A DNA stretch of 63,913 nt, filler included, from Reclinomonas americana ATCC 50394 (GCA_048213135.1; 13 parts of 13 records of this genome joined end to end with filler, not necessarily neighbours in it), one strand, 5' to 3'; counted from the whole stretch's first letter, positions 1-32,219 are shown. Notes: generated from the letters alone by a model not told the origin. Translations and numbers: made by a program.

Positions 1-91
1 GTTCGTCGACTTAGTTCGACTAGTCGGACGGACGGAACGTAGTTCGTACGACCGACTACTAACCCAAACCAACTAATAGTCGACAACACTA

Positions 92-135
<44 letters not shown>

Positions 136-1206
136 CTGATTCCGTGTGCGTGCGTACAAGAGACTGTAATACTGAGCGACAGTCCTCGTATTCACGACAG
201 CGAACGCCTTTTTCTCTGCAGTGTCTGGGCGCATGAGCGACAAGATAGCTGAGAGACAGTCCCCGCATGAGCCACTAAGCACTTCTCTGCGACTGCAAAC
301 GCCCCTCTCTGTCACTCTCTCAAATGTGTCCCCACACAGCTGAGAGAAGAGTACTCGCATGTCGACAGTAAGTGGCTCTCTGCGACTACAAACGCCTATC
401 GCTCCCTCCCTCTCTCTCCCTCCCTCTCTGTCTCTCTGTCTCTCTCCATGTGTCTGTGCGCACGTGGCTGACTCAACGTCCCGCCGCTGCGCCCTCCCAT
501 GACGCTCCCTGTGCACGCGACCAAGTCGAAGACGAAGAAGTAAAAGGCGCACTCGGAGGTGCCGGAGCAGTCGGCATCGCTGGCACCGGTCGATATCGAG
601 AGAAGCCTGAGCAGAGAAAGAGTGAGAGAAAGACAGAGCATTGATCATCAATCACTTCAATCAATGCACTACGCACACAAAAAGAACACACACACATACA
701 CACACACATACACACACACACACACACACACAAGAGAATGCATATCTCTCTCTCTCTCTTGCAGGACTCACAGTGAACACACGCTCTCACAGTATTTATC
801 TCTCTCTGTTATTGCTGTTGATGTTGTTGCTTGCACTCAACTCTCTGGCAACTTGCTGAACAACCACTCTCTCAGCGTGACTGAGCTCGACAAGCCGCGA
901 ACTTGCAATTGTTGATGTGTGCGACCAAGCATTTGCTGAAACCACATTCTTCTCACTTACTCACTCCACTCGCTGTGAGAAAGAGAAAGAGGGAGGGATA
1001 ACACCGGATCACTCACACACTGAGAAAAGGAGGCAGATGGAGTTCTGAGGCCGCCGGACACGCGACGTTTGGATGTATGTGGATGAGGTGCTGAGAGATG
1101 ATTCGGTGCTGTCATTGACGCGAGTATGGCGGGTGAGTGGGCAAGGCGGAGGAGTAATGTCGCAGAAGGAGTAAGGGTAACAATCGCATCTTCATTGATT
1201 TTTCCT

Positions 1207-4200
1207 TCAAACATCAAGGGCGTCGGTAAAGTCGGGCAACACTGGGCCGATGATGCGCTCCACCAGCCCGCGAGTGCCTCGACGCATGAGATAGATTGAG
1301 CTGCCCGACACGCGAGCAGTGTACGAAGCGCCATATGCCATACAGCCAACAGTGACCACTCGGCCCGATTCAGGACTCACAAGGTCCGCCTGCTCGTCAA
1401 GGGGCACTTCTTCGCCATTGGCCAGTGACCACACACGAACAGAGCAGTCAATGCTCCCGCACACAATGTACTGACTGTCGGGAGAAACACCGACTGACAT
1501 TATCATGCCAGTGTGTCCCTCCGACCGCCGCACCTCTTCTCCACACTCTAGCGACCACACGCGCACTGTCTGGTCCTGACTCCCACTGACAATGTACTGA
1601 CCATTGGGGGTGACGACGACCGATCGCACCCAATTGTCGTGCCCCACCAATCGCAATACTTCATATCCATTCGACAGCGACCACACACGTACTGTTCCGT
1701 CGTTACTGCAACTCACGATATGCTGACCATCGGGGGTGACAGCGACTGAGTTCACCCAGCCAGTGTGTCCCTCCAACCGCCGTACTTCCGCTCCACTCGT
1801 CAGCGACCACACTCGCACCGTCAAATCATCACTGCCACTGACAATGAATTGCCCATCGGGAGTGACGGTTACAGAGTTCACCTCTGCAGTGTGTCCGTCC
1901 AACCGAAGTACTTCTTCTCCAGTCACCGGTGACCACACCCGCACTGAGTTGTCTTCGCCTCCTCTAACAACGAGCTGAACATTTTGAGCGAAAAAGAAAG
2001 CTGCACCACCGGGGCACTGCTCGCCAATTTTCCACAGTTCCTCACCGGTCGTCAAGCGCCACCTCCGCACCGTCCCGTCGGTACCTACACTCACAACGTG
2101 CTGATCATCGGGGGTGAGCACGACCGAATGGATCCATCCAGTGTGTCCTCCCAACCGACGTATCTCCTCTGCATCCCCCGCTAAACTCCACATTCGAACA
2201 GTGCTGTCTGCACTCCCACTGACCACATGCCGACCATCGAAAGTGGTGGCGACAGACAATACAGCATCAGTGTGACCCTCCAACCGTTTCACTTCTTCTC
2301 CACTCACCAGTGACCACATCCGCAGTGTCCTGTCCCAACTCCCACTGATAATGTGCTGCCCATCTGGTGTAATGGCAATAGTCGTCACTGCAGCAGTGTG
2401 TCCACTCAGCCGTAGCACCTCTGCGCCACTCGCCAGTGACCACACTAGCACTGACTTGTCCTTGCCTCCACTCACAATGTGCTGACCATCGAGAGTTATG
2501 GCGACAGAGTACACTTCGTCGTAGTGTCCCTCCAACCGCTGCACCTCATCGCCACTCAACAATGACCACACTCGCACAGTAGAATCCTCACTCCCGCTGA
2601 CAACGTGCAGACAATCAGGAGTGACGGCGACAGAGCACACTGCACCAGTATGACCCACCAACAGTCGCACTTCTTCTCCAGTTACAAGAGACCACACGCG
2701 CAACGTCGCATCCCCGCTCCCACTCACAACATGTTGACTGTCGAAAGTGACAGCCACGGATTTCACATCATCACTGTGACCTTCCATACATCGCACCTCT
2801 TCTCCACTCGTCAAACACCACACTCGCACGGTCTTGTCATGACTGCCACTAACGACGTACTCGCCTTTGGGTGTAAAGGCTACAGAAATGATCCCTCCTA
2901 AATGTCCCTCGAACTGCCACAGTTCTTCACCGCTCGCCAGCGACCACACCCGCAACGTGCAGTCCACACCCCCGCTGACAATCTGCTGATCACAAGGAGC
3001 GACAGCGACAGAGAAAACTGCGCCAGCGTGCCCCTCCATCGGCTCCCTCGGCCACGTCACTTCCGTCACATCCGCCCCTCTGAAATCCGCCTCCCTCGCA
3101 TACGCCATGCACAAATTCACTCCTCGCAAATCGGCACCCCTCCACACCGTCCTATGCATCACCGCGTCCCTCAAATCCGCACCCCTCAATCGCACACCCG
3201 ACAGATCTCGCCCACTGAACGATACTTGTGCCACACACAACACCGTCGCGGCATTCGCCGCGGCCGTCACCACTCGCTCTTCGTCCACATCTCGTGACAA
3301 TCCTATCACCTCCCACAGTCTTGCTTGCAACGCAGGAGACCGTCGCACCACCTCGGCCATCTGCTCCACCAACGATGGTCTGTCATTCAGCAGTCGCATT
3401 GCCAGCACATGCTGCCGCACATCTTCCATCGTCAACTTTCTCTCCTCATCCCACGTCTCCCACGCAAACACATGCCGCGCCACACAGTGCTCCAGCAACG
3501 ACAGATGCACGAATCCCCACTGCGTTGTCCCATACCGTCGCACAATCGGACAGCACACTCGCACATGCTGGTTCTTGTGACCGAGGAACTTGTCGAACGG
3601 ACCCTCTTCCACTCTTCGAATATCAAGTGGCGCACCGCCAAAATCATCCTCCTCATCACCTAACCGACTCTCCATCACAGACACACGCACAACATTCCTC
3701 TCATGCATGAACCGAGCCAGTCCCTCGCAGAAGGAGAGACACGTCTCCTCACTCGGCACACGCTCTGCACCAAGACGCGTCTGTCTCTCCTGCTCCCTCA
3801 AAATCCACTGTCGAATGAATCGGTCAAACGCATCACGCCGAGTCGGTCGCTGCACACCACTCGCAACCAACTGCGGCAACACGCGAGCCACCACTGCCAG
3901 CAGGAATGGATTCGACACCAGTGCATCCAGTCCATGCACACTCTGCAGTGCACGAATGTACTCCTCGGCAGTCGACCATCGCACGTCACCGTCATCATCA
4001 TCACCGCCCACTTGCACCAGTCGCTCAAAGTACTCTTCAATCTGCTCCTTGTTGAACGGTGCAATGTGTCGCTCCATCAACTGCTGCATGCACAACTGTC
4101 CTCGTGCATCCACTGGCGCAAACAGCCTTCGATACTGTGTCGCACCACCCAACGCCGTCAGTGCATAATCACCTCGACAGGTGATAATCACCTTCACATC

Positions 4201-5859
4201 GCGACACACATCCAACTGATTCTTGACAAACAGATTCACACCACGGTACAACTCGTCATACCCGTCCAGCAACAACAACAGTGGTTCCTCCTTCAACCGT
4301 CGCACATCCGACTCCAATCCCAACTCGGGTGACAATCGCTCCAGTGCCTCCACCAACAATCGCTCATCGGCATTGCGCAGTGCACCGAGAGGCACACGCA
4401 CAGGCACTCGTCTGCTTTCTCTCGTCTGCCACTGTCGCCACGCTCGCTCGGCTAGCACCGACATTGTGGTGGTCTTGCCGGCCCCGCTGTTGCCAAAGAG
4501 TACCAGCACACGCTGCATCGTGTTGGAGTCGGAGAGGAAAGCATCAACCTCTGTGGACAAATCCGTCATCTTGTCTCGCGACGAAACATCACGATCACGT
4601 GAGCATTGCAGTGGCACATACATCTGCATGTCCTTGTGCACACTCTCATCGTGCTGGTAGAATGAGAGCTCACGTACAGCCAGTCGCTGCAGTCGCTCCT
4701 CAAAAGTGCTGACGGTTAGCTGCACGGAACGTGCCTCTCGGACACGAGCAGAGAATCGCGCAAGCTCGTCAGCCGTCAACTGCAGTCGGGAGAGAATGGA
4801 GAGGAACACACCAACGTCACCGAGGTACTGCTGCACAGTGGAATCCGTCAGCGGCAGCTCATCGTGTTTCAGCTTGTTCCTGACGCTGTGCAGCTCCTCG
4901 ACCGCCTTTCGTTCAACGACATCGTCAATCAGCAGCAGCTTGCGACCGTCATCAAGCACAAAGCCACCATACTGCATGATGGCATGCAGCGCCGTCGTGT
5001 CGAGTCCGGAACACGACGGGTCGGACGAGGGGTCGGCGTCAAATGCAGCACGCCAGGCCACAACCACCGGCTGCTTTTCTTTGAATAGTGCAACTCGCAC
5101 AGAATGAAGCGGTGCGTGGCGATCACGCCACGCCTTCACAGCCACTACATCCATGCCAGCAGGCGTGAAACTCGGCACCCACGCTCGCACATCAAAGTCG
5201 AGATGATCCCGACTAAACTGTGCCAGTGCGCGTTGACAGCGCAGACGCACGGCCTCCTCCACCACCTCGAAGGCCATGTTGATGCGCTGTGAGTTAATCA
5301 TGCTGTGCGTGTACACACACAAACGCAGTCAGCACAGATTCACACACAGTGAAGAACAAGGAAAGGAGAGGAGGATGACGACGGCAAGCAAAACAAACCG
5401 AGTCACTCGCTCCGAGTTGCTGTGCGAAGACATGAGAGTGAGCTGCATGTTGCGCAGAGAGATGATGCACTCACATCCCAGACACACCTTGCATCCGCAC
5501 TCCCACTCCCTCCACTCGACTGCAGCGCCACGCGAACGTTCACACGGACGATGAGATGCGTGGATGAGTTGATTCCGAGTGTCCTAAGCTTTGTCACCGG
5601 GGCGTCTTCCAGCTCGTATTCTGCTGGCCTCTCCACCCCCACAATCTCCATCGCCCCATCTCCACTCTTCTCACGCATCAAGCGTGTGGCCTCGTGCAGC
5701 AAGCCCGCGAGAGTGGACACGGCCGACATGCCCTCCACCACCACCGACAGCGACGAATCGTGTGCCGCACTCACATTCACAGAGAACTTTGACACACACA
5801 CAAGTGCAGTGAGCACACAACAACAAAGGGAAGAGACAGGAAAAGCACACCGACAAACA

Positions 5860-5893
<34 letters not shown>

Positions 5894-5919
5894 ATGCACA
5901 CAAAAACACACACCGACAT
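1207..5919 (-). CDS. NLR-like STAND protein: ubiquitin-like domain, HEPN-like domain, NACHT NTPase, pentapeptide repeats and about 13-14 WD40 repeats. Exons 5919-5914, 5786-5488, 5419-5399, 5302-1207.
   Basis: Walker A GNSGAGKT (4471-4494); Walker B LLLLLDGYDE (about 4252-4281); Rx4H motif RNKLKH (4864-4881); pentapeptide run FSGRDLSGVRLRGADLRDAVM...ADFRGADV; 42-aa GH...W repeats at about 1400-3045. Three GT-AG introns join in consistent phase (0,2,2), adding an N-terminal beta-grasp-like segment MSFSVNV...KLRTLGINSSTHLIVRV. Confidence 0.92.
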
Positions 5920-6196
5920 CGTTGTGTGCGTGTGTCAGTTCTCCGCCAGAGTTTTCTCGTCACAATTGGAATGCAATTTCCCGCGCAGGTCTTTCGGAAG
6001 TCCTTCCATGATCAACCAAGCCGCAGCGGGAAGAGAAAACAGGTGCCGGTGCAAGCGTCTCACATGCCACATCAACTTCATTCACATTACCACCCTCCCT
6101 CAATGCATGCTGAACCACCCCAAAAACGGCTTTCGCGCCCCACCCTTCTTCCCCTTCTTCTTCTCCCCCGATGATCCCGCCGCGCTACCCGCCGCC

Positions 6197-8204
6197 TCAC
6201 CCTCCCCCTCCCCCCTCTCCCTCCTCCTCCCCCACCACCACCTCCCCCGCCGTCAGCCGCCGCAACACCGCCAACTCCCGATCCACCACCTGGTTCGTGT
6301 ACGCATACCGCCAGTCCGCCTTGCGCTCCTCCACCGCCGCACACAATCGCTCCACCACCGCCGCCGGCTCCGCCGACATGCTCACGTAGAACACCAGCTG
6401 TCGCCACGCATACGCCAGGTTCTTGCGCACCCGTAGATTCGCATGGCTCGCCGACAGCGGCTGCTGCCGCATCCACCGCCCAGTCGTCACCGCCAGCTGC
6501 TCCATCTCCACCGGTACACGCAGCAGCGGCAGCAGCACCAGGTTGTGCGTCGTCAGCACCTGGCAGCACTCGATCGTGCGCCCATTCGCCACCACCCACT
6601 TGGGCTCACGCTCGCCCTTCACCATCGCCCGCTGTGCCATGCTCTCGCACGCGCGCAGCAACTCGCCCGGCGACGGCGGCTGATTCGTCCACGCCGCCAG
6701 CACCTCGCTGATGCCAAAGTACTCGGCGTACACGCTGCGCGGTCGCACGTGCGTGGCGGTGAGGTGTGCCGCCACACAAAACGCCTCCGAGAACTGGCCC
6801 ATGAAAATGTCGGCCGCCAGCTCCGACAGCACCGGGAAGTAGTCGGCGTCGGTCGGGCGCCGGTTCGGCCGCAGCAGGTTGACGCACTGCTGCATCACCG
6901 CGTTGACCATTGTGTTGGGCATCAGCGTCTGCGGGAAGGCGNNNNNNNNNNNNNNNNNNNNNNNNNNNNNNNNNNNNNNNNNNNNTTAATTAATTAANNN
7001 NNNNNNNNNNNNNNNNNNNNNNNNNNNNNNNNNNNNNNNNNTGGTCCGAGCTCTGCACCAAGCCGCGCTCCACAAAGTGCGCCGGCGTGTCCAACACCAC
7101 ACGCTCCGCCAGCTGCACAAACACCGCCGAGTCGCCCTCCCGCACCAGCTGCTCCAGTCGCTCCACACCGCCATGCATGCGCCCGCGCAGCTGCTCGCTG
7201 CCCTGCACGCGCTGAATCAACGCCTCGTGATCCATCAGTCGCATCTGTCGCAGCTGCGTGGCGTACAACTCCGCACGCCGCTCGCGCGCCTCCGCATCCA
7301 TACCATACTTGCGCAGCGATGCACGCACAATCTCCCTGTTGCACCGGCCGTGCCGATCGCCCAACTTCTCCTTGAGGAATGCCAGCAGGTGCTTCAACGA
7401 GCTGCGCGCACGCTGACGACCACCGCGCGGCAACAACCGCTCCACCTCGCGCACCGCTGCCTCGGCGCGTTGCCGGTACTCGTCCGTCATCACAAACTCG
7501 TCTGCGGCCTCGGCCACCAGCTCCACCACCTGCAGCTTCAGTGGCGCCACTGCGCGCAAAAAGTGCTCGTGGCGACACTTGAGCGACGACTCGTAGCGCT
7601 CCTTCTTGCGCTCCAGTGTGCGCACGAGGTTGCCGAGAGTCAGCAGACACGTGCGCGTCGGCATCTCCATCACCTGCTGCTCAGCTGCTGCCGGTGGCAC
7701 AAACTGCAGTCGATCCATCAGCGGCGCAATGGCCATCATCACACGCTGTGCGGCCTCGGTGTCGCCCTGCTCCAGCAGCCACACATACGCCATCAGCGCG
7801 CCATGCTCGGCGTGCACCAAGCGGTAGCGCCCACTGTGCAGCAGCTCAGTCACGCGCGGCAGCTGCTCCAGCTGATTGTGTCCGGCGTGGCGGTCGCCGC
7901 GCGCGGCCAGTGCATTGCCCGAGGCGAATCCGCCCTGCAGCACCTCCAGCGTCACCCACTCGGGGAATCCCTGCACGGGGGCGCGCTGGCCAATGGAGAC
8001 CTCGCCGGCGGCCATGCGTGTGTAGGCCTGCAGGTAGCGGTCCAGTTTGGCGCGAAATGCGGCCTGGGCGGCGTTGGAGGAGCCGGCGGCGCGCATGCGT
8101 TCCATGAGGTGGAGGAGGTAGGTGGGGTTGCCGAGGAGCGTGGCTTCGTTGATGTCGTCGTCGTCATCCGAGTTGGGGATGGGGGGTGCGTCGCGCTCGG
8201 CCAT
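6197..8204 (-). CDS. Intronless uncharacterised protein resembling a bacterial hypothetical family, interrupted by an assembly gap
   Basis: Two long GC-rich, intron-free ORF halves on the same strand flank gap 6942-7041. Motifs PEWVTLEVLQGGFASG, AFPQTLMPN, ELAADIFMGQFS, NGRTIECCQVLTTHNL and KNLAYAWRQLVFY. Resemblance to actinobacterial/myxobacterial proteins is from recollection only. Confidence 0.75.
6942..7041. other. Artificial 100-nt scaffold spacer. Others start at 17459, 20023, 23143, 30314, 33721, 35801, 52443, 55407, 58606, 59899 and 62513.
   Basis: Identical N44-TTAATTAATTAA-N44 at every gap; the insert places stop codons in all six frames. Confidence 0.98.
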
Positions 8205-8747: not shown

Positions 8748-10257
8748 TCACGCCCGGAAATCCCACGTCAAATTCTTCTGCACCAACGGGGCACGGCGCA
8801 CCACCGTCATGAAATCGTTGAACGACACGCGGCCGACGGCATCCAAATCCGACTCCTGCATCACGCGCTCGACAATCACCTTGCGCTCCTCCACCGTCAG
8901 GATCTGCGCGCCAGGGGCGTCCATGTTGCCGGTGCTGGCCATCAGGTCCGACGGACCGCACAGCAAATCGACCAGCGCCTCAATGTCCTGCCGCGTGATG
9001 AAACCGCGCGCCGTGTCGTCGGCGCCCTTGGGCCGATCAAACACGCGGAACAGCAGCTCGGCCTTGGAGTCGAAAGTGGCGTCGGCGTGCAGGCTGTCGG
9101 CCATGTCGATGAAGCCGTCGAGGGTGAGGTAGACGCGCGTGTCGCGCACCTCGTCGTACGGCAGGCCGGAGAAGACGCGGAAGATGCGCTTGAGGAGGGG
9201 GGAGATGAGGCGGTTGTTGGCCCACATGTCGTTCTTTTGCCAGTCGCGGAACATGATGTAGGGTTCGTCCATTCCGAGGGGGTTCTGTGGAGGAGAAGGA
9301 AGGGGGGGGGGGGGGGGGGGAGGGATGAGAGGGGAAGGGGTGGGGGGAAAGGTGAAGAGGGGAGGGGGAATGATGGGAGAGGGGAAGAGGGTTTGAGTGA
9401 ACGAGAAAGAATGTGAAAGAATGTGATAGGGGGAGAAAGGGGATACAGGGGATACAGGGGATAAAGGGGGAGCAAGGGGGAGAAAGGGGGAAAGAGAAGT
9501 GGTGAAGTACGTCAAGTGAAAGAACTACGGTGAGAGAGCGATTCAGAGTATGCAACAGAGAAGAACGGAGAAACGGAGGGAAGGAAAAGCTGTGCATCCA
9601 GCGAGGAGGAAGGAAGACGTATGGAAAGGAGAAGCTCGCGCGAGTGAAGGAGAGTCAGAAGGATTGTTGGACCATGCGACAGAGTGACACAGGGTACAGA
9701 AGGGAAGGTGGTAAACCGAGCGAGAAGAAAGAGGAGCAGAGAGCAGAGAAGGAGAAGTTCGTGAGTAAACGAGAGTCAGATGGAGTGTCGGACCAAGCGA
9801 CAGAGTGGCACAGGGTACAGAAGGGAAGGTGGCGGCGCATCAAGAGAAGAGGAAGACGAGCGCATTGGACACAGAGAGAACTGAGTGCAAGCGAGAGGCT
9901 GGTTCAGTGTGCGACAAAGGAACAGAACAGCAGACTGGTGAAAATGAAAGAAGCTGAGTGCGTATGAACGAGGAGATGGAGTTCAGAGCGTGTGACGGTG
10001 TGATGCAGAGTTTTGTGCAGGGAAGAGAAGGACAATCGATGAAAACTGGCTTACATGAAGTGAGTAAAAGATGAAAAGAACTGAGAGCGAGATAGCTGAG
10101 GGGAGCGAGAAGAAAAAGAGAAGAGGACACGTCCATAAGCACGTAAACGGGAAAAGAAGAGAGTGGGAATCATGCACTAAATGACGGGCAACAAAGACAG
10201 CGCGTGCCGTGAAGATCACCAGATGAGATCACGGCGAATCAGTTGTCCGACGAGGGG

Positions 10258-14526: not shown

Positions 14527-15597
14527 TCACACTCTCGCATCCTCCCACCGAAACACCACCACCTCCGCCTCCTCCACCACAAAACACCGCAACACAATCT
14601 CCACCAGGCACCGACACTCATCCATCAAAGCCTCCTGCACCGCCGCCAGCGCACTCCTCGCCGCCACCTCCTCCCTCCGCGCCAGCACATGCGCCGTGGA
14701 CCACACCAACACCGCCCCATCCGCCCCACCCGACACAACATGCCGCCCATCCGCAGTGACGCACACCGACGACACCGCCCCGGTGTGACCCGCCAGCGCA
14801 AGCAACTGCTGCCCCTCTTTCGACCACACCTGCACGAGCTTACCACTGTCGCCAAACACGACATGCTGCGTGCCGACGGCCACACACGACACGCCACTCG
14901 CCAGGCCCTCCAGACGACGCACCTCGTCGCCACTCGCCAGCGCCCACAGTCGCACACTCTTTCCGGATCCGTGATCGCCCGTGACCACATGCCGCCCATC
15001 GCCGGTCACCGCTACACTGTACAGCCAGGTGTCGACACCGCGATGCCACACCTGCTCGCCACTGCCCATGCACCACACACGCACAGTGCCATCGGAGCCT
15101 CCAGAGACAAAGTGTCGCCCGTCGGGGGCGACAGCGACTGCCAGCACCCAACCTTTGTGCTCCCACAAACGATGCAACTCGTCGCCACTCTCCAAGCACC
15201 ACACGCGCACCGACTTATCGACACTGCCTGTCACCAGGCGCTTGCTGTCGGGCGAGATGGCCACTGCGCGCACTGCTCCCGTGTGTCTCTCAAACGAGAT
15301 GAGCAGGTCGCCGCTGGTGAATGACCACACGCATGCGCTGCGGTCGTCACTGCCGGAGACAATGAGCTTGCCGCAGGAGGACACGGCCAGAGCGCGCACG
15401 GACTTGGTGTGGCCTTGCAGGTGCCACAGCTCGTCTCCTTGTCCCTCCAGTGACCACACGTGGATGCAGTTGTCGCGTCCGCCCGAGAGGATGTGACGGT
15501 TGTCGGGAGTGACTGCCACGGCAAAGATGCTGCTGCTGGGGGTTGTGGTGGGGGTGGTGGTGGTGAGGCGGGTGCGGAGGGCGAGGGTGGGCAGCAT
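14527..15597 (-). CDS. Intronless WD40 protein (about 7 repeats) with a C-terminal helical motif
   Basis: Repeats such as GHTKSVRALAVSSCGKLIVSGSDDRSACVWS, of the same type as in the NLR. Tail VAARSALAAVQEAL...LVEIVLRCFVVEEA. Confidence 0.88.
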   Translation of the reverse strand: MLPTLALRTRLTTTTPTTTPSSSIFAVAVTPDNRHILSGGRDNCIHVWSLEGQGDELWHLQGHTKSVRALAVSSCGKLIVSGSDDRSACVWSFTSGDLLISFERHTGAVRAVAISPDSKRLVTGSVDKSVRVWCLESGDELHRLWEHKGWVLAVAVAPDGRHFVSGGSDGTVRVWCMGSGEQVWHRGVDTWLYSVAVTGDGRHVVTGDHGSGKSVRLWALASGDEVRRLEGLASGVSCVAVGTQHVVFGDSGKLVQVWSKEGQQLLALAGHTGAVSSVCVTADGRHVVSGGADGAVLVWSTAHVLARREEVAARSALAAVQEALMDECRCLVEIVLRCFVVEEAEVVVFRWEDARV

Positions 15598-16145
15598 GGC
15601 GGAGAGGGTGAAGGGTGGTCGGAGTGGGAAGGTGTTGTCCTGCACATGCGCGACGTCGCCTCACGCAGTGACGCAGAGACGAGGTGCCTGCCACTGCGAG
15701 GAAGCTGGAGACGGAGAGACACGAGTTCGTGGCTGGAGATGGAGAGACACGAGCTCGTGGCAAGTCCTTGATGAGTATCGTAACCATGTCCTGTTCGGGA
15801 TTGCCCTTCTTGGCCATGGTTTCGAAGCCTGTTAAGCTCTCACTGGCTTTGGCGAACCTTGATCTTCACCTTGGTAGCATACACCTAGCAGCAGCCTTGT
15901 GGGGTTTGCATCCTCTGCGATTGAGCTCCGCGAATTCGAATTCCGATGCATATGCTCCATTTCTCACATATTTTACCCTTGCATCCATGACCCGTGACCC
16001 TCGGCAGAACGCCCTGGAGGTCAAGACCGACCAATACCCCGCTCTGTTGATCACACAAACGTGGCCGCACTCACAAAGGCAACAATGAAGAAGCGAAAAA
16101 CTGGGATGGATGCCGTAAACAACCGTGCACTGTACATTCTCACTC

Positions 16146-19100
16146 TCAGTGGACCATGGTGAAGGCGTGCTTCATCACCCGGGTTATCTTGGGCATTCGC
16201 TTCCCGTTCGGCAGTGTCTCGCTGCGGGACTGCGAGATGGAGAAGGACGGGGTGAGTGAAATCAAGTTTTTCCGAGAAACGGCAATGAAGAAACGCAACG
16301 TAATCCAGTTGCATGAATGCTGGGGCCACACCCGGTGCGCCGCAGCCAGCGTCGCACTGCGCAGGCAAGGAGGAACAGGATGAGGGTCACGGTTCACACA
16401 AAGAGGCGTTTTCATGCAAGTCTCTCTTGCAGTGATGCTGACGTAGCTCCGCGTCTCTGCATATTATTGTCTCCTCTCACATACGCACTCCATTTCTTTC
16501 CTTCGCTCCTTCTCCGCCCTTCTCTCCCTCCCCATCACTTGCCACATGCGCGCTGCAGTTGCTCTCTCTCTCTCTCTCTCAATCTCTTTCTCTTTCGCCT
16601 CTTTCAGTTTCTCGATATCTCTTCCGATATCCTTTTCTCCTTGACTTCCTCTCCTCCAAACTCTCCTCCCACTTACTTCTCTCCTACGCACTGCGATTGC
16701 TCTCTTTCTCTCTCACATACACACACACTCTCTCTCTTCGCTTCCCTTCTCTTCTACCCTCCTTCCCCCTTCTCCCTCCCCACCTTTCCCTTTGTCCCCC
16801 TTCCTCTCTCCCTTCCCCTTGATACTCACCGCCACCCTCGTCCACTCCTCGCTATTCTTCACCCTCTGCGGGTCCTTCTTCTCCATCAACCTCCGCGCCT
16901 GCGCGCTGAGTGCCTGCCGCTTCGCCTGAATCAACTTTGGCCCGATCTTGGGGTGCGTGTACACGCGACTCGACTTGTAGCCGGGAATGAGTGCCTCCAC
17001 GTCCTCCACCTGCGTGAGCACCTTGCTTGGCGACAGCAGCGCACTGCCCTGCAACGAGAAGCCGTTTTTCGCGGGCGATGCCACCGCTGCTGCCTCCTCT
17101 TCGACGGGTGGTGACACTGCGAGACAGTGGATAAGAAAGGGTGGTGGAGAGGTCACTGAGAAAAGGGTGAGCGCACCTGCTCGTCGACCAGCAAGACCGC
17201 CGGCTGTCAGTGAGGGCTCGTCGGCTGTGTGTTTGCACAGAATGAGAACCATGAAAGCCCCTGCCTTCCCTCTCTCCAAAACTCACCTTGCCATCGCGCC
17301 TCGCATGCACCAATCGTGCCCACCAGATCTCGCACAAACTGACTGGCTGCCACGGCGCGGATCTCGCCCGTGCCTTGCGTGGCGACGGTCGGCGACGCTG
17401 CCACCATGCGCTTGCGCATGCCGAGCCGGCTGATGGTGATCACCTGCTCTTCCGCAACNNNNNNNNNNNNNNNNNNNNNNNNNNNNNNNNNNNNNNNNNN
17501 NNTTAATTAATTAANNNNNNNNNNNNNNNNNNNNNNNNNNNNNNNNNNNNNNNNNNNNAGGATGAGAACGCACCTCCCGACAGCATGACAAATCCGCTGT
17601 TGTTGGTGTTGTCGGGGCGTGTCGGTGCCACAGCAAAGCGTGCCGATACCGCCTCCATGCGTGAGTCGCCGTTCACCGTGCCCTTGAGCACGAAACTCGA
17701 GCGCGAGGCTGAGTTGCTTGTCACCGAAAAGTCGTCGCCGCGAATGCGTCCATCATTGCCGGCAACCGACTGGCGCATCGACATGACACCGATCACGGCC
17801 ACGGGAACGGCAGGCACCGACGCAAACTGGTACGCGGATGACACACTGACCAGCTGTGCATGACACGAAGTAAGCTGGGTGAGCAGTCGCGAGAGAGACG
17901 AGGATTCACAAAAATCACGCAACAGTTGAGCTGTTCTTGTTTACCGCATCCGACGCCCACGCTGCGCTTGTCAGCGTGCGCTGACCATCCATCGACAGAG
18001 CATTCGTCTGATGCACGTAGTACGCCAGGTAGCCTGCACATGCAGCAAAGCGGAGGGAAGATGATGAGTCACACACTTCAATGCCTTGTCCTTCATCGCT
18101 GTGAACGCAACTCAGCGTGATGGTGGGTCCCAGCTGGCCGTCACTTGACACGCCATGGCATCGAGTCGACAGTTGCGCCGCAGTCACCACCGGCTCCGCA
18201 CAGAATGCGAAAGTGCCGTCAGTCGGCTCGTTGGCAAGAGTGGAAATTGGGCCAGCGGCGCCCTGACGACCGACACTGGCAAAGCCGAGCAACACGCGCG
18301 GGCGGCGGTAGAACTCGCGAGCAAACGTGAACTGGATCGTGGTTGCCGTCACTGCCAGTGTTGACATGCTTGGCTTCGGGGTGGCAGGGCTGCTGTCCAT
18401 GTCGTCAACGGTCGACAGCGTTGATGTGGGCGCCGCGCTGCTGCTCGCACTCAGACCACTGGCCGTCATGAATCCGGCAGTGAATGACTCCCCCGACGAC
18501 ACGTACGGTCCGTTGTTGGCCGCCACACACAACTTGTAGGCACCGCCGCCACTCGACCCGTTCGGCGTGATGGTCGCGCGGAACACGCGGCAGCCAGTCG
18601 CAAACTCACACGTGTCGGCACCGGTACGCACAAACGACGCGCCAACACTCCCCGTCAGCGTCGAGTAGTCCGACAGAGTGGAGCAATCGACGCCGACCGG
18701 CACCAGCTTGAAGCTCGTGCAGTCGGTGAGGTTCTCAGTGGTGGAACCAATCACAATCGAGTTGGCAATGCCGTACTTGAGCACGGGCGGATTGGCAAAG
18801 GAGATCACCGGCGTCGATGAGGCGGCAGTCACAATGAGCGGGAGGGGTTGCAGGCGGTACACGGCGGTGCCACCGGCCTGGAACCTGGAGGTAGAGAAGG
18901 GCAAAAGTGAGTTAGAGAGATGGAGGATGGAGGCAGAGGGACGGAGAGGGAAAGGATGAGAGGAAGGAGAGGAGGAATCGGAAAAAGAAAAAGAGAGGGA
19001 GAAGTGGGGCGAGAGGGAGAAGGAAAGTGGAGTGAGCGTGTGATTAAGTCAAGAGACACGAAATGGAGTGCCCGAGAGGGAGAGAGAAAGAAGAACAGCA

Positions 19101-20021: not shown

Positions 20022-20128
20022 CNNNNNNNNNNNNNNNNNNNNNNNNNNNNNNNNNNNNNNNNNNNNTTAATTAATTAANNNNNNNNNNNNNNNNNNNNNN
20101 NNNNNNNNNNNNNNNNNNNNNNCTACTC

Positions 20129-22812
20129 TTGTCGATTTGTGGTGGCGCTGAGGAGAGAGTTTCACCTGACAAACTCGCTGTGGTTCTCTGTCGCAGTAAT
20201 CTGTCACGACTAGCCTCGTTCATCAAGTGCATGAGACGAGCCGTGCGCAAATTCGTGCGTTATGCCAAGGGTGCAGAGCAATATTTTGGGAAAGGTGTGT
20301 GTGTTGTTGCAGAGTCCGTGGTTCTCGCTTTCATTCTCCACCTCACTGATCTGTCAGCTCTTGCGAAAGGCCCGTGTGAGGACGTCAAAGTGGATACCTC
20401 CGCTGACGAACCCAGCGCGGACGATGATACTGGTGCATCGGGGTCTGGTGCGCCGGCCGAGGCCGACAAACTGGAGTTTTCAGAGTCGGCTTCTGATGTG
20501 TCAGCGCCTGGTGCATCGACTCCTGATTCATCGAATGTGGGTGGAGACACGCGGGCGTCGCTTGCAGAACTTGCCATGCTCACCTGTCCGTATCATGAGA
20601 GCACTGTGTCGCATCACAACCTGGCCGACATATTCCAGTGCTTCACGGATCACGGACTCCCGTCTCGGTTCGAGCACGTGATGGGAACCGTGCGACCCGA
20701 CTGCAATATTTCGGCCGCCGTGGGCGAGCAGTTCGAGGTGCTGTGCATGGCAGGAATTGCTTGCGGGCCTGCTCCAGAGCTTTTCCAACCTGCAGTCATT
20801 GACAAAATGTTTCGTAAGGTGCACGAGCGTTTTTGTTGTCGCGTGTTATTGTACCGCGAATCTAACTCGTTTGTGCACGAATTAGCACGGCGGCGTTCCC
20901 GAATACGTATACGGAGAAGCCGATTCGTGTCGGTCCTCGCGGCACCCGGTTCAGCGCCCTCAGAGTCGGCTTGCCAATCGCCTTCGGTGCTGACAGCGAA
21001 CACAAGGACTTTGTCAAGGTTGTGTGGAACATGACCGGCAACATGCTGATGATGGCCCACACATTGCGTGCCACGGATGCAAGACGTCAACTGCGCTGCT
21101 TCGCCATGCTGGCAACGGGTCAGTCCATCGCGTTGCTGGCGTTTCGCCTTGATCCGGCGCTGTGCGGCGATGGCGATAAATTCGCTGTTCTCGTTTCACT
21201 GGTGGGCACGTGGGTGCCGAGATTTGGTGCGTTTGTCCGCGCGCAGGCATTCGTGCTTGTGAGTCGTGGGTATTTTGTTCATCTTCTGAGTATTCTTACG
21301 ATGCAGGCGCAACTCAGGAGTCACTCGTGATTGCAATGACGCGAATGTTCTTGGCAATGTGTCGGAGTCAAGAGTTGCTCACGGAGGCTATTCGTGGTGG
21401 TCGGCGACAGCAATCTCTCCCCACGTGGGTACCCATCTCTTCAGATCCGAAACACCATGAAATCGGGAACAGTGCCAACAAGGTTGCAGAAAACACTCCG
21501 GCAAAACCTGCGGGACTGAGGCCAGCCACGTCGAGAAACCTAGTGTTTGGTGCGAAACGTCGCGTGGTGTTGCACGACGGTGAGTGACTTGTTCATGGCT
21601 CGATCAGCTGAACATTATTTTCTTTCCATTGCTGATCTGGGTCACGTTTTTGCAGATGGCTGCCGGCAGTGGGTCGTCAAGTGGGTCAACTGCAGCGAAT
21701 GTGCTCCGAGCGTTGTCGACGCTTTCGGGTGTCTGCACGAGGCTCAAGTACTTTTGCGGATTGCGTCGCCCGCGGTGCTCTCCATTCCTCGCGTACTCAA
21801 CTGGGGTCCGTTGCCGATCCCGATCCCCTCCAACATTGCCCACCGCCACCAATGGTTCGGGCTCACCACGCCGTACTATGGCAATGACTGGCCTCGCACT
21901 GTTGATGACGCGTGTGCATTGACGCGACACCTGCTGGCGGCGCTGGCGCACGCAGCTTCGCACGGTTACATTCACCGCGACGTGAAAGGCGACAATGTCT
22001 GCTTTTCGTCGCAGTCAATGGTGGCTGTGCTGGTTGACTGGGGCCACGCACGCTTCGTCGGAAACGGTGACTTGCCGTATGTCGGCCGTGGAGGCACCGT
22101 GGGCTACCTTGTTGCGCTCTGACTCGCCGCTTCCTGTCTGTTCCACGCGTTGTGTGCTAAATACTTGGGGGCGTTGACATGTACGCACATGTGCGCGCGC
22201 AGGCTCCGGAGTCGTTGCCAGATCCACTGGCGGCGACGGACGTAAGACGAGGTGGGCGAGTGGAGCTTCGCGTCAGATATGTGGAGTGCAGGCGTGGTGA
22301 TTGCCGAGGCGCTGCTGAAGCGGAAGCTGGTGCAGATCGATTCTTTTCTGCCTCACGTGGAGCCGATCGACTTGGCGACCACGCTCATCGAGTTGTTGCA
22401 CCAAGAGGCCGAGGAGCTGGCGGAGGCCGACAATGTCGCCGCGCATGCCCGATTCATGCAGGGCATTCAGCTTGTAAGCGCCTTGCTGATTGACAAGCCG
22501 CAGTGACGCCTGACGGCGCAAGAGGCACTGACTCACAGTTTCTGCATGCATGTGAGCCGCATGGAGTTTTCTGCTCCTGCTGGCGTTTCCGCAGCGGTTA
22601 CCGAACGCCCTGCTGACGCTCCGGCTGTGGCGGCCGCCGCCGTCACTGCTAGAATCGACTGCCATATCGGCGTCTCGAAACCTGACCCGGTTGCGAGTGA
22701 CGAGAACCAGCGCCAGGCAGCGTCGAGCGTGGCAACCGCACAGATGACGAAGGCAGTTCACGAGGAGCCGAGACCGATGCAAGTGCGGATTCCGCTGATG
22801 CCGAAACAGTGA
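20129..22812 (+). pseudogene. Ser/Thr protein kinase with long N-terminal extension, apparently disrupted
   Basis: WVVK, IHRDVKGDN, DWG, GTVGYL|APE, SDMWSAGVV and RLTAQEALTHSF are present. The frame changes between APE and DMWS (about 22203-22252) and an in-frame TGA sits at 22504-22506 within subdomain XI. Confidence 0.75.
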
Positions 22813-23258
22813 GGCGTGCAGCAGGCGGCCCACCACATACCCCTCAATATAGAGTAAAGAAGCTACTTCATGCCACCTTCCCGACTGGAGCGCACGTTGT
22901 ACTCGACATAAGTCGAGAAATGGCGGGAGAAAACAGCAATTTTCGCGCCCAAATCTCTGAATCTCTCTCTCAACACACACACATCGTCGCGAGTGCGATC
23001 GATGCTCGGGCAGATCGACTTTGAGGCGCTCTCCTATGGGTTGGAACGCGAGGCGCGATTTGAGGGTGTGTGCGGTTAACTGTGATTTCTCTCTCTCTCT
23101 CACTCACTCTCTCACTCTCTGTGTGTGCGTGCGTGCGTGTGTNNNNNNNNNNNNNNNNNNNNNNNNNNNNNNNNNNNNNNNNNNNNTTAATTAATTAANN
23201 NNNNNNNNNNNNNNNNNNNNNNNNNNNNNNNNNNNNNNNNNNGCGACGACGGAGGAGT

Positions 23259-23307
<49 letters not shown>

Positions 23308-23353
23308 CCTGTATATGTGTGTGTTGGTGTCTCACCTCGCGTGGGGTGAACAG

Positions 23354-24445
23354 GTTCTGAAAGGGCACACTCTCGAGGTCTGCTCCGTCACTGTCACGCC
23401 CGACGGCCAACACATCATTAGTGGGAGTGGAGACATGACAGTGCGAATGTGGTCACTGGGAACATGGAAAGCAGTGCGACTGTTCGAGGGGCACACCAAT
23501 GCGGTGACTTCTGTCGCCGTTACTCCCGATGGTCAGCATGTTGTGAGTGGCAGTGCGGACAAGACCGTGCGAGTGTGGTCACTGGCGAGTGGCGAGGAGG
23601 TGCGACGGTTGGAGGGTCACACAGAGGCCGTGCTTTCCGTCGCCATCACACCCGATGGTCAACGCATCGTCAGTGGCAGCTACGATCACACTGTAGGAGT
23701 GTGGTCTGTGGCGAGCGGAGAGATGGAGCAACAGCTACTGGGCCACACTGGGTCGGTGCGTTCCGTCGCCACCTCTCCCGACGGTCGGGCCATTGTGAGC
23801 GGCAGCATCGACGGCACTGTGCGAGTATGGCCTCTCGCGGGTGGCGAAGAGGTGCGAGACGTTACTCGTGCCAACTATCACGGAGTGTGGTCTGTTGCTG
23901 TCACTCCGGATAGTTCGTGCATTGTGATTGGGGGCCGCGACATGATGGTGCGCGTGTTTTCGTTTGCGAGTGGTGACACACAAGCTCGGCAAGTTCACGC
24001 GCTTCAAGGACATAGTGACTGGGTGTGCTGTGTCGCCGTCACTCCCGACGGTCAGTATGCAGCAAGTGGAAGCTACGACCGAAGTTTACGAATGTGGTCA
24101 GTGGCGAGTGGAGCCAAAGTGCGCCGCTGGTTTGCACACAGTGGAATCGTGTGGTCGGTCGCCATCTCTCCGGATGGTCAACACGTCGTGAGTGGGGGGG
24201 TTGACAAGACAATACAAGTGTGGTCCACGTTGCGCGGGCGTGCTGGGCTCGAGGTTGCGGCCGCGCGACTGGCGGTGGTGGCTGTCAATGAGCTGCTTGC
24301 GGAGCAGGAGGAGGAGAAGGAGGAGGAGGATGATGATGGTGACCGTCGTGAGTGGATCCTCGTCGATGTCGTGCTGCGGTGTTTTGTGCTGGAGGATGCG
24401 AGGATGATCGAACGGCGCTCGCCGGGGTGGTTGACGGATTTGTGA
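23354..24445 (+). CDS. WD40 protein (7 repeats), paralog of 14527-15597; 5' exon probably lost in gap
   Basis: Repeats such as GHTNAVTSVAVTPDGQHVVSGSADKTVRVWSLASGEEVRRL. Acceptor CAG at 23351-23353. Tail EVAAARLAVVAVNELL...LVDVVLRCFVLEDA. Confidence 0.9.
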   Translation, partial: VLKGHTLEVCSVTVTPDGQHIISGSGDMTVRMWSLGTWKAVRLFEGHTNAVTSVAVTPDGQHVVSGSADKTVRVWSLASGEEVRRLEGHTEAVLSVAITPDGQRIVSGSYDHTVGVWSVASGEMEQQLLGHTGSVRSVATSPDGRAIVSGSIDGTVRVWPLAGGEEVRDVTRANYHGVWSVAVTPDSSCIVIGGRDMMVRVFSFASGDTQARQVHALQGHSDWVCCVAVTPDGQYAASGSYDRSLRMWSVASGAKVRRWFAHSGIVWSVAISPDGQHVVSGGVDKTIQVWSTLRGRAGLEVAAARLAVVAVNELLAEQEEEKEEEDDDGDRREWILVDVVLRCFVLEDARMIERRSPGWLTDL

Positions 24446-29321: not shown

Positions 29322-29614
29322 GGATTGCGTGGAAAGGGAGAGGGATTGAGACAGAGATGGAGTGAGAGCGAGAGAGAGAGAGAGAGAGCGGATGAGAGCA
29401 ATGAGGTGCAGTCTTCTTGCGTGTGCGTGTGCGTGTGTAGATGTGTGTGTGTAGTGGGACGGGGACAAGATTCTTTTCCTCGCCGTCTCTCACGCTATAA
29501 CACGTCCGCATACACTCTTTATATCACGACCGCTCCTGTCATCAGTTTAACTTCACATCCTCCACCTCGCTTCCCACCTCCACCCGTCGCCGTCGGTGTC
29601 AGCATTCCGTGTGA

Positions 29615-31921: not shown

Positions 31922-31963
<42 letters not shown>

Positions 31964-32219
31964 CACAGGCAGACACACTGACAGACGCTCACACACACGC
32001 ACGCACAACACACATTCATCGCGTTCTATGTCTCTCTGGCAATCTGGGGTCGTGGCCTCGCGGCACCCGACCTTGTCCTTCTGTCACTGTCTCACTCGCT
32101 GCCTACCTGCTCTGTGTCACACCCTGAGCCACACACATATTCATCTCACACTGTCACATCGACGTTCCTCCTTTCCATCAACCCACCTCTCTTCAACACA
32201 ACCCCGGAGCACGGCAAAG

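What the first reader, a model, noticed from the sequence alone, without database searches (positions are those of the whole stretch)
1207..5919. NLR-like receptor with a Ubl-HEPN-NACHT-pentapeptide-WD40 architecture
Seen: three in-phase introns link a 6-nt start exon, a ubiquitin-like exon and a 21-nt exon to the large ORF. The region before the NACHT contains LDTTAL...VEELHSVRNKLKH followed by an amphipathic helix. Known: Rx4-6H is the HEPN RNase signature, and NACHT-WD40 proteins (Podospora HET-E/NWD family, bacterial NACHT defence proteins) are ligand-activated immune switches with N-terminal effectors. Inference: WD40 sensing drives oligomerisation and activates a HEPN ribonuclease, with the Ubl acting as header, degradation tag or decoy. 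The ORF track hides the Ubl fusion.
Basis: partly seen in the sequence, partly recalled or inferred. Interest (0 to 1): 0.88.

Follow-up and report, generated by a model that had tools for sequence, protein, structure and literature searches.

The report
HEPN-NACHT-WD40 receptor, possible ubiquitin-like cap
A protist gene encodes an immune-receptor-like switch protein whose front end looks like an RNA-cutting HEPN domain, and a conserved small exon just upstream is probably, though not provably, spliced onto it.

Summary
The minus-strand ORF 1207-5301 is a real STAND gene. NACHT, pentapeptide and 13 regular WD40 repeats all pass Pfam cut-offs.

**HEPN.** The 260-aa N-terminus has almost no relatives: 1 weak hit in 1.84 billion representatives. 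Three weak lines agree on a Swt1-like HEPN:
- It is the only Pfam hit (E 0.011-0.03, below cut-off).
- It is the top ESM-Atlas cluster.
- My own profile of 45 bacterial sequences scores 15.5 bits; 0 of 5000 shuffles reach that. R141, N142 and H146 sit on the catalytic columns.

**Upstream exon 5488-5786.** It is coding. The ubiquitin-like fold remains only a lead.

**Fusion.** Splicing onto the receptor ORF is unproven: no RNA run was listed, and 31 other in-frame joins exist. Branch-site-like motifs at both acceptors and the coding-potential boundaries favour it.

**Novelty.** HEPN-NACHT proteins are already described in bivalves, cnidarians and bacteria, so this is a new variant of a known kind.

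The parts
5914..5919 (-). Candidate coding part of the start exon (ATG TCG, Met-Ser), followed by a GTGTGT donor.
   Evidence: The related EST ORF P0027 begins M-A-T directly before FSVNV, so a very short coding start spliced at 5786 is expected. An alternative is ATG 6072 or 6081 up to 6064 with a GTGAGA donor.
5787..5913 (-). Intron 1 (127 nt). GTGTGT...CAAAG, with CTCAC starting 27 nt before the exon.
   Evidence: The acceptor position is supported by P0027. The frame upstream of 5786 is microsatellite-like and non-coding, at -16.5 bits.
5488..5786 (-). Exon 2: a conserved ~85-residue domain (ubiquitin-like lead) plus a Gly/Ser linker.
   Evidence: 48 of 69 residues are identical to P0027 from Reclinomonas americana EST EC785470.1. 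Codon LLR is +24.3 bits. The Atlas gives ubiquitin-family leads. There is no Pfam hit.
5420..5487 (-). GTGTGT...CACAG, with CTCAC starting 23 nt before the exon.
   Evidence: Read-through after the donor scores -15.3 bits over 28 codons.
5399..5419 (-). Possible 21-nt micro-exon. It may also be skipped: a single 185-nt intron 5487-5303 keeps the frame.
   Evidence: No evidence decides between inclusion and skipping.
5303..5398 (-). GTTTGT...CACAG, with CTGAC starting 30 nt before the exon.
1207..5302 (-). Large last exon. It encodes 1364 residues from the ATG at 5301, with the stop at 1207-1209.
4732..5301 (-). N-terminal Swt1-like HEPN candidate (residues 1 to about 190), with an insert at roughly residues 45-100.
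4864..4881 (-). RNKLKH (residues 141-146), the Rx4H motif with Asn after Arg.
   Evidence: In one search, R, N and H align with the R, N and H columns of the bacterial Swt1-HEPN profile.
4021..4512 (-). NACHT NTPase domain (residues 264-427). Walker A is GNSGAGKT at residue 270; Walker B-like LLLLDGYDE is at residue 342.
   Evidence: Pfam PF05729, E 1.8e-8, 34.8 bits against a 26.7-bit cut-off. Motifs.
3058..3201 (-). Pentapeptide-repeat segment (residues about 701-748).
   Evidence: PF00805, E 2.7e-9, 36.9 bits against a 20.2-bit cut-off.
1210..3036 (-). Thirteen regular 42-residue WD40 repeats (residues 756-1292) plus a 72-residue tail.
   Evidence: PF00400, 12 stretches, E 7.8e-124. Regex count of 13. 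126-nt DNA period with 68-71% matches.

Best explanation
This is one eukaryotic NLR-like STAND gene.

**Shown by sequence.** Its main exon (5302-1207) encodes, in order:
- an N-terminal domain that is most likely a catalytically competent Swt1-type HEPN RNase, with R141-N-x3-H146;
- a NACHT NTPase;
- a short pentapeptide solenoid;
- 13 WD40 repeats plus a 72-residue tail (enough for two propellers if the tail adds a blade; this is my reading, not tested).

A conserved, transcribed-in-a-relative exon (5786-5488) lies 186 nt upstream on the same strand. It has no usable stop of its own and is most likely spliced onto the receptor. That would give a small N-terminal cap domain (possibly ubiquitin-like) plus a Gly/Ser linker.

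**Inferred mechanism** (from what is known of STAND/NLR proteins and HEPN RNases, not tested here):
- The repeat region holds the NACHT in an off state.
- Binding of a ligand to the repeats permits nucleotide exchange and oligomerisation.
- Oligomerisation brings the N-terminal HEPN domains into the dimeric arrangement that HEPN nucleases need for a composite active site.
- RNA cleavage then arrests or kills the cell, or destroys invader RNA.
- The cap would regulate or mask the HEPN.

**My odds:** HEPN about 0.75; fusion about 0.65; beta-grasp fold of the cap about 0.55.
For: **Domains**
- NACHT, pentapeptide and WD40 are all above Pfam cut-offs.
- Walker A and a DGYDE Walker B are present.

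**HEPN**
- PF18731 is the only Pfam family hit for five different cuts of the N-terminus, at E 0.011-0.031.
- The top Atlas cluster is 99% PF18731.
- My profile uses 45 HEPN_Swt1 matches from genomes of one bacterial phylum; two of the 45 were re-checked against Pfam. It scores 15.5 bits on the N-terminus, E 6.3e-7 for one target, with R, N and H aligned.
- 0 of 5000 shuffles reach that score; the maximum is 11.1.
- Among 1045 six-frame ORFs of the window, only this ORF matches (E 0.0063; the next is 3.1).

**Exon 2 is real**
- P0027 matches at E 5.8e-19, with 48 of 69 residues identical, and starts MAT-FSVNV.
- Codon LLR is +24.3 bits, against negative values in the other five frames and in both flanks.

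**Fusion**
- The exon-2 frame runs 28 non-coding-like codons before a stop.
- Both downstream acceptors are CACAG with CT[CG]AC starting 23 and 30 nt upstream.
- Three introns I inferred from domain continuity elsewhere in the window have YTSAY at 22-29 nt.
- Only 19 of 192 CACAG sites in the window have CT[CG]AC in that range.
- GTGTGT also serves as donor in the CDC14-like intron.
Against: **HEPN**
- The HEPN score is below Pfam's gathering cut-off (15-16.5 against 27.5 bits).
- PF18731 was not listed when the 760-residue piece was scanned (protein 1).
- hhalign gives P 0.0014 but only 17.8% probability.
- The similarity rests mainly on about 40 residues.
- The AlphaFold2 model of the N-terminus is unusable (pLDDT 38.4), so the four-helix fold is untested.
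- No homologue exists to test conservation of RNKLKH.

**Fusion**
- No RNA evidence is available.
- 31 alternative in-frame joins exist.
- The ATG at 5301 sits near the start of the bacterial HEPN profile: residues 2-19 pair with profile positions 14-31, a piece that scores -1.3 bits on its own. The ORF could therefore start there by itself.
- The upstream gene ends only 278 nt before ATG 5919, and a published jakobid genome has spacers of 44-691 nt (PMC7050145, passages read). Short spacing alone therefore does not prove one gene.
- P0027 stops after 72 residues, before the end of exon 2, and shows nothing downstream.
- The branch-motif argument was defined after looking at only three reference introns.

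**Ubiquitin-like fold**
- There is no Pfam hit.
- The model has pLDDT 42.9.
Confidence: 0.6

Rival explanations
1. There are two separate genes. One is a small stand-alone gene for the conserved ~100-residue domain (exons 1-2). The other is an independent HEPN-NACHT-WD40 gene starting at ATG 5301. The in-frame joins are coincidence.
For: - 31 in-frame, stop-free joins are possible, so the frame arithmetic carries little weight.
- The ATG at 5301 pairs with the start of the bacterial HEPN profile, though that piece scores only -1.3 bits.
- The genome is compact: there are 278 nt to the upstream gene.
- The related EST ORF is short (72 aa, labelled complete) and shows no receptor part.
- No HEPN-like relative of the N-terminus appeared among EST-derived proteins.
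Against: - The exon-2 frame has no stop at the end of the conserved part. It runs through 28 Cys/Ser-rich, non-coding-like codons scoring -15.3 bits.
- Only about 100 nt would remain between that stop (5403-5405) and ATG 5301 for a 3' end, a promoter and a 5' UTR.
- The conserved part ends in a Gly/Ser linker followed at once by a GTGTGT donor.
- Both proposed acceptors carry well-placed branch-like motifs. The background rate is 19 of 192 CACAG sites.
Confidence: 0.3
2. The N-terminal 200 residues are not an active HEPN RNase. They would be an unrelated helical or mixed domain (adaptor or other effector) that happens to carry RNxxxH.
For: - The Pfam score is below the cut-off.
- hhalign probability is 17.8%.
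- Four Rx4-6H strings occur in the 260 residues, so the bare motif is common.
- Residues 45-100 are predicted as strands, not helices, in a low-confidence model.
- There are no relatives to show conservation.
Against: - Two methods, Pfam and the ESM Atlas, pick the same family out of 24,736 Pfam models and 7.7 million Atlas clusters; a profile I built for that same family (not an independent pick) agrees.
- 0 of 5000 shuffles reach the score.
- R, N and H fall on the catalytic columns, and the following helix also aligns.
- An effector-type domain in front of the NTPase is the expected place in NLR-like proteins. HEPN-NACHT and HEPN-STAND fusions are documented (PMC3710099 and PMC9646362, passages read).
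Confidence: 0.22
3. Exon 2 is fused as proposed but is not a ubiquitin-like beta-grasp. It would be another small alpha/beta domain.
For: - There is no Pfam hit at E <= 1.
- PDB sequence and profile searches give nothing ubiquitin-like.
- Foldseek on the low-confidence model ranks ribosomal protein S6 permutants first, at E 0.067.
- The two best Atlas clusters (0.91 and 0.90) are unnamed.
Against: - Four clusters shown in the Atlas top 30 carry a Pfam family. Three of them (ranks 3, 7, 30) are ubiquitin or Rad60-SLD. The fourth (rank 26) has OTCace_N on 19% of its members.
- P0027 weakly hits the SIN1 Ras-binding domain at E 0.069. That this domain has a ubiquitin-type fold is my recollection.
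- The predicted element order is strand, strand, long helix, strand ... strand.
Confidence: 0.4

Closest known systems
Animal HEPN-NACHT NLR-like proteins: DZIP3-like HEPN-NACHT of bivalves, and CXorf38-family HEPN-NACHT of cnidarians and cephalochordates.
   Same: An N-terminal HEPN with Rx4H (Asn after Arg), a central NACHT, and a C-terminal repeat sensor that can be LRR, TPR or WD40 (PMC9646362 passages; PMC3710099 passages).
   Different: - The HEPN here matches the Swt1-like family (PF18731), not DZIP3-like or CXorf38.
- The host appears to be a jakobid-like protist.
- A pentapeptide segment lies between NACHT and WD40.
- A possible extra N-terminal cap domain is present.
Bacterial Swt1-like HEPN proteins: the Ava_2192 type with an AAA+ ATPase, and HEPN-STAND-TPR proteins.
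   Same: - The best profile match is to this type, and the catalytic R-N-x3-H aligns.
- The paper lists Swt1-family HEPN fused to STAND ATPases in bacteria. It also lists bacterial-type Swt1 HEPN domains acquired by Naegleria, dictyostelids and Daphnia (PMC3710099).
   Different: - The eukaryotic acquisitions are described there as solo domains; here the domain heads a NACHT-WD40 protein.
- The similarity is weak (15.5 bits), and an insert of about 55 residues is present.
NACHT-pentapeptide-WD40 proteins of Mortierellomycotina fungi, their Mycoavidus endosymbionts, Hexamita, Peziza and EukProt 'tig' records.
   Same: The NACHT-to-pentapeptide region is 24-31% identical over 51-100% of the query (95-100% in 18 of 23 hits), at E down to 4.2e-36, followed by WD40 (23 hits). 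18 of the 24 loci lie in Mycoavidus MAGs.
   Different: - Their N-termini differ. Kinase is one example (PF00069, so named by a source). PF07647, PF00536 and PF13676 also occur; I recall these as SAM and TIR.
- None of the 24 proteins tested matches the HEPN profile (best E 0.074) or the N-terminus.
Fungal HET-E/NWD NACHT-WD40 proteins (recalled, not examined here).
   Same: NACHT followed by a long array of very regular WD40 repeats, with a variable N-terminal effector.
   Different: - No HEPN effector is known to me in that family.
- Repeat similarity here is moderate (68-71% at the DNA level).
- Membership was not tested.
Sacsin.
   Same: One polypeptide combining an N-terminal ubiquitin-like domain with a HEPN domain (PMC3710099, Table 1 passage).
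   Different: - Sacsin's HEPN is C-terminal and of the HEPN-T family.
- It has no NACHT or WD40.
- It is not homologous in architecture.

Membership tests
NACHT (PF05729) STAND NTPases | Profile match above the curated cut-off. | tested here: met
   E 1.8e-8, 34.8 bits against 26.7; residues 264-427 against profile 1-162 of 167.
NACHT (PF05729) STAND NTPases | Walker A GxxxxGK[ST], and Walker B hhhhD followed by an acidic residue (the motif definitions are recalled). | tested here: met
   GNSGAGKT at residue 270; LLLLDGYDE at residue 342.
HEPN superfamily, Swt1-like (PF18731) | Rx4-6H motif with a polar residue (usually Asn) after Arg. | tested here: met
   RNKLKH at 141-146, aligned to the R-N-x3-H columns of the profile. 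The motif definition comes from PMC3710099 and PMC9646362 passages.
HEPN superfamily, Swt1-like (PF18731) | Profile match above Pfam's gathering cut-off. | tested here: not met
   15.0-16.5 bits against 27.5; E 0.011-0.031.
HEPN superfamily, Swt1-like (PF18731) | Similarity beyond chance to bona fide members. | tested here: met
   Custom 45-sequence profile: 15.5 bits, and 0 of 5000 shuffles reach it. It is the only hit among 1045 window ORFs. hhalign gives P 0.0014 but probability 17.8%.
HEPN superfamily, Swt1-like (PF18731) | Four-helix up-and-down bundle fold. | tested here: inconclusive
   AlphaFold2 from a single sequence gives pLDDT 38.4. No fold search was attempted on it.
HEPN superfamily, Swt1-like (PF18731) | Metal-independent RNase activity that depends on R and H. 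| not testable with these tools
   Needs a bench assay.
Ubiquitin-like beta-grasp domains | Profile match to a ubiquitin-family model. | tested here: not met
   0 Pfam families at E <= 1. Nothing ubiquitin-like in PDB sequence searches.
Ubiquitin-like beta-grasp domains | Beta-grasp fold. | tested here: inconclusive
   Model pLDDT 42.9, with element order E-E-H-E...E. Foldseek gives no match at E <= 0.001. The Atlas gives ubiquitin or Rad60-SLD clusters at 0.87-0.89 as leads only.
WD40 (PF00400) and pentapeptide (PF00805) repeats | Profile matches above the cut-offs. | tested here: met
   WD40: 399 bits in 12 stretches. Pentapeptide: 36.9 bits against 20.2.
NLR-type immune receptor (functional class) | Ligand-triggered oligomerisation and an immune or cell-death output. 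| not testable with these tools
   Architecture only. PADLOC gave only weak P-loop-level hits (best E 2.4e-4, mad8).

The most novel reading that the evidence does not exclude
A free-living jakobid-like protist has independently built an NLR by placing a bacterial-type Swt1 HEPN RNase in front of a NACHT-pentapeptide-WD40 module. It then capped the RNase with a lineage-specific ubiquitin-like domain, joined by a Gly/Ser linker that contains a Gly-Gly. The cap would act as a removable or regulatory safety catch on the RNase: cleaved, or recognised by the ubiquitin system, on activation. Related cap-bearing genes would form a family in jakobids (the Reclinomonas EST would be one member).
Probability: 0.15. 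Interest if true: 0.7.

Novelty: new variant of a known kind. Interest (0 to 1): 0.45.

Why it matters
If confirmed, this would extend HEPN-armed NLR-like receptors from animals and bacteria to a deep-branching group of free-living protists. It would be another case of the 'RNase effector plus STAND switch plus repeat sensor' design arising by domain shuffling.

It would also show a bacterial-type Swt1 HEPN inside a eukaryotic multidomain receptor. The one survey I read describes such eukaryotic acquisitions as solo domains (PMC3710099).

The possible ubiquitin-like cap would be an unusual regulatory add-on. I found no paper with both NACHT and Reclinomonas (0 papers). The titles and abstract openings of the six papers listed for NACHT with Discoba (of seven that hold both terms) did not concern NLRs.

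The practical lesson is that the gene's 5' end cannot be read from the ORF map alone.

Tried and rejected
- **RNA evidence:** no RNA holder was listed for 1207-6000, so read laying could not be used.
- **Whole genome:** none is held for this window.
- **Relatives of the N-terminus:**
  - None at E <= 0.01 among proteins of 750-2387 aa.
  - One 75-aa fragment, matching residues 198-255 only, among 1.84 billion representatives.
  - No PDB sequence hit.
  - No paralogue in the window by tblastn.
  - Two metagenome scans found no relative of the HEPN-NACHT part or of exon 2.
- **Structure:**
  - Both AlphaFold2 jobs gave unusable confidence: 38.4 for the N-terminus and 42.9 for exon 2 with a 2-row alignment.
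  - Foldseek on the exon-2 model gave no match at E <= 0.001 and S6 permutants on top. I do not read this as evidence about the fold.
  - I ran no fold search on the N-terminus model.
- **PADLOC:** only weak P-loop-level hits.
- **Rfam and tRNA scans of 1-6941:** nothing.
- **Earlier findings of this scan:** nothing by place, sequence or words.
- **Genomic context beyond 6941:** rejected as evidence, because the window is a chain of contigs.
- **Canonical-donor alternative** (GTGAGT at 5474 to acceptor 5287): considered.
- **Complex prediction:** not used. Without relatives, a HEPN dimer job had little chance of being informative.


Full report
**What the window is.** The sequence is eukaryotic: it has spliceosomal-type introns and is rich in microsatellites. 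It is also a chain of separate contigs. Twelve joiners of the form N44-TTAATTAATTAA-N44 divide it. The finding lies wholly in the first piece, 1-6941, so only that piece is true genomic context. No whole genome is held for the window, and no RNA run was listed.

**The observation.**
- 5919-5914
- 5786-5488
- 5419-5399
- 5302-1207

They are bordered by GT..AG, with introns of 127, 68 and 96 nt. They join into a 4422-nt frame whose only stop is the terminal one. The strings LDTTAL and VEELHSVRNKLKH are present. RNKLKH is residues 141-146, counted from the ATG at 5301.

Two corrections are needed.
- The introns preserve the frame but are not all of one phase: phases 0, 2 and 2.
- Frame-preserving joins are cheap in this sequence. 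One search lists 31 single-intron, stop-free, in-frame ways to link exon 2 to the big ORF. One is a direct 185-nt intron (5487-5303) that skips the 21-nt exon. One search also lists alternative start exons: MWH or MKLMWH ending at 6064 with a GTGAGA donor.

**The large ORF.** Pfam places the following:
- NACHT at residues 264-427 (34.8 bits against a 26.7-bit cut-off)
- pentapeptide repeats around 701-748 (36.9 against 20.2)
- a very strong WD40 signal (PF00400, 12 stretches)

Walker A (GNSGAGKT) and a DGYDE-type Walker B are intact. I count 13 regular 42-residue WD40 units plus a 72-residue tail. The DNA period is 126 nt at 68-71% matches.

The NACHT-to-pentapeptide region finds 23 proteins at 24-31% identity:
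- mostly Mortierellomycotina fungi
- a Mortierella endosymbiont
- Hexamita
- Peziza
- EukProt 'tig' records

Those proteins carry other N-termini. Kinase is so named by a source. Other Pfam accessions in the listing I recall as SAM and TIR. None of the 24 proteins I could test resembles this N-terminus or a HEPN profile.

**Is the N-terminus a HEPN?** By ordinary searches the first 260 residues are nearly orphan:
- nothing among proteins of similar length
- one 75-aa fragment covering only the pre-NACHT residues 198-255, out of 1.84 billion representatives
- nothing in the PDB

Three lines point to the Swt1-like HEPN family.
1. PF18731 is the only Pfam family reported for five different cuts of the region. 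E is 0.011-0.031 at 15-16.5 bits, and residues 129-168 always pair with profile positions 74-112. This is under the 27.5-bit cut-off. PF18731 was also not listed when the 760-residue piece was scanned.
2. The nearest ESM-Atlas cluster is 99% PF18731 at a score of 0.81, which the tool rates as a lead only.
3. I built an independent profile.
   - I searched 401 genomes of one bacterial phylum with PF18731: 45 had a match and 41 were over the cut-off.
   - I took 30 loci from that call and 15 weaker ones, then aligned the domains.
   - The profile scores 15.5 bits on the N-terminus, E 6.3e-7 for a single target.
   - R141, N142 and H146 fall on the R, N and H columns, and the next helix also aligns. 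A weak colinear piece pairs residues 2-19 with the profile's first helix.
   - 0 of 5000 shuffles reach 15.5 bits; the maximum is 11.1. hhalign gives P 0.0014 but only 17.8% probability.
   - Of 1045 six-frame ORFs in the window, only this one matches (E 0.0063; the next is 3.1).

AlphaFold2 without relatives gave pLDDT 38.4, so the fold is untested. I put HEPN at about 0.75. It is Swt1-like rather than DZIP3-like.

**Is exon 2 real, and is it ubiquitin-like?** Exon 2 is clearly coding.
- It matches P0027 at E 5.8e-19, with 48 of 69 residues identical.
- The source names P0027 as EukProt EP00694, Reclinomonas americana, from EST EC785470.1, ORF p2.
- P0027 begins M-A-T immediately before FSVNVSAAHD. 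In the genomic frame, no Met precedes FSVNV. This supports an acceptor at 5786 and a very short coding start exon. It does not say which ATG is used.
- Codon-usage log-odds, trained on the large ORF, are +24.3 bits for exon 2 in its frame and negative in the other five frames. They are -16.5 bits upstream of the acceptor and -15.3 bits over the 28 codons of read-through after the donor.

The ubiquitin-like fold has only lead-level support.
- Atlas clusters annotated as ubiquitin or Rad60-SLD appear at ranks 3, 7 and 30 (0.87-0.89), below two unnamed clusters.
- P0027 has a weak hit to the SIN1 Ras-binding domain (E 0.069).
- A low-confidence model (pLDDT 42.9) has strand-strand-helix-strand...strand order.
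- Pfam, PDB sequence and profile searches, and Foldseek give nothing.

**Is exon 2 spliced to the receptor ORF?** There is no direct evidence.

For the fusion:
- The conserved part ends in a Gly/Ser stretch followed at once by a GTGTGT donor.
- The frame has no stop for another 28 non-coding-like codons.
- Only about 100 nt separate that stop from ATG 5301.
- To learn what introns look like here, I inferred three from domain continuity elsewhere in the window:
  - a kinase intron at 22111-22202, which restores a GT-x-GY-x-APE motif
  - two CDC14-like introns at 33061-32958 and 32873-32797, which restore consecutive DSPn profile positions
- Their donors are GTTGCG, GTGTGT and GTTGCG. Each has a YTSAY motif starting 22-29 nt before the next exon.
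- In the whole window only 414 of 8147 AG sites, and 19 of 192 CACAG sites, have CT[CG]AC in that range.
- This motif was defined after seeing the data and from only three reference introns, so I treat it as moderate support.

Against the fusion:
- The many alternative joins.
- The natural-looking start at ATG 5301.
- The compact spacing: the upstream same-strand ORF ends at 6197, 278 nt before ATG 5919.
- A published jakobid genome has spacers of 44-691 nt and introns of 55-756 nt (PMC7050145, passages read).
- P0027 ends after 72 residues, short of the end of exon 2, and says nothing about what follows.

I put the fusion at about 0.65. I leave the 21-nt exon undecided.

**Mechanism.** The shown parts are the domain order and the intact NTPase and HEPN motifs. 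The rest is inferred from what is known of STAND/NLR switches and HEPN RNases:
- The repeat region senses a ligand.
- The NACHT then oligomerises.
- The N-terminal HEPN domains are brought together into the dimer that forms the active site.
- RNA is cut.
- A cap domain in front of the HEPN could mask or regulate it.

**Comparison with what is known.** HEPN in front of NACHT or other STAND NTPases is already described.
- CXorf38-family HEPN-NACHT occurs in cnidarians and cephalochordates, and N-terminal HEPN-STAND occurs in bacteria (PMC3710099, passages read).
- More than 50 DZIP3-like HEPN-NACHT proteins occur in a pearl oyster, some with WD40 or TPR (PMC9646362, passages read).
- PMC3710099 also records bacterial-type Swt1 HEPN domains in Naegleria, dictyostelids and Daphnia, as solo domains.
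- Two papers on bacterial conflict systems list HEPN among the effectors of such systems (PMC8195603, passages); the passages I read in PMC7159879 mention HEPN only in its reference list.

What is new here is the combination and the host:
- a Swt1-type HEPN on a NACHT-pentapeptide-WD40 chassis
- an organism whose only identifiable relative is a jakobid
- a possible extra cap domain

I therefore rate it a new variant of a known kind, of moderate interest.

Noticed in passing
window 6942-7041, 17459-17558, 20023-20122, 23143-23242, 30314-30413, 33721-33820, 35801-35900, 52443-52542, 55407-55506, 58606-58705, 59899-59998, 62513-62612: There are twelve joiners of 44 N + TTAATTAATTAA + 44 N (a six-frame stop spacer). 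The window is a chain of separate contigs, so adjacency across these points is not genomic.
   Followed up: yes
window 6197-6941 (-): This is the C-terminal part of another gene on the same strand. It is strongly coding-like (87 bits, GC3 0.89), has no Pfam family at E <= 0.001, and ends 278 nt upstream of ATG 5919.
   Followed up: partly
window 30765-33304 (-): A CDC14-like dual-specificity phosphatase gene is split by introns. DSPn pieces lie at 33047-33304 and 32149-32796, and the catalytic part at 30765-31253. Two short introns have donors GTGTGT and GTTGCG, and one intron of about 950 nt is full of microsatellites.
   Followed up: partly
window 21544-22503 (+): A protein-kinase gene has a 92-nt intron (22111-22202, GTTGCG...GCGCAG). 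There is an apparent one-base frame break near 22240, which could be an assembly error or a pseudogene.
   Followed up: partly
window 14530-15660 (-), 23195-24445 (+), 27504-29489 (-): Further WD40 and TPR_12/TPR_10 ORFs lie on other contigs of the window and may belong to other STAND-like genes. tblastn with this gene's NACHT found nothing there.
   Followed up: no
window 24984-25912 (-), 48685-49521 (-), 39057-40232 (+), 8748-9524 (-): RING finger next to a kinase ORF; a SET-domain ORF; a TFIIIC B-block ORF; an EF-hand ORF.
   Followed up: no
loci L001-L018 (Mycoavidus cysteinexigens MAGs) and proteins P0004-P0018: NACHT-pentapeptide-WD40 proteins occur in many copies both in Mortierellomycotina fungi and in MAGs labelled as their Mycoavidus endosymbionts. 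18 of 24 loci lie in those MAGs. This suggests either gene exchange or fungal contigs binned into the MAGs.
   Followed up: no
window 5936-6081 (-): Upstream ATGs open short reading frames in the likely 5' leader (MKLMWH... and an ORF ending at a TGA near 5936). One of them offers an alternative start exon with a GTGAGA donor at 6063.
   Followed up: partly
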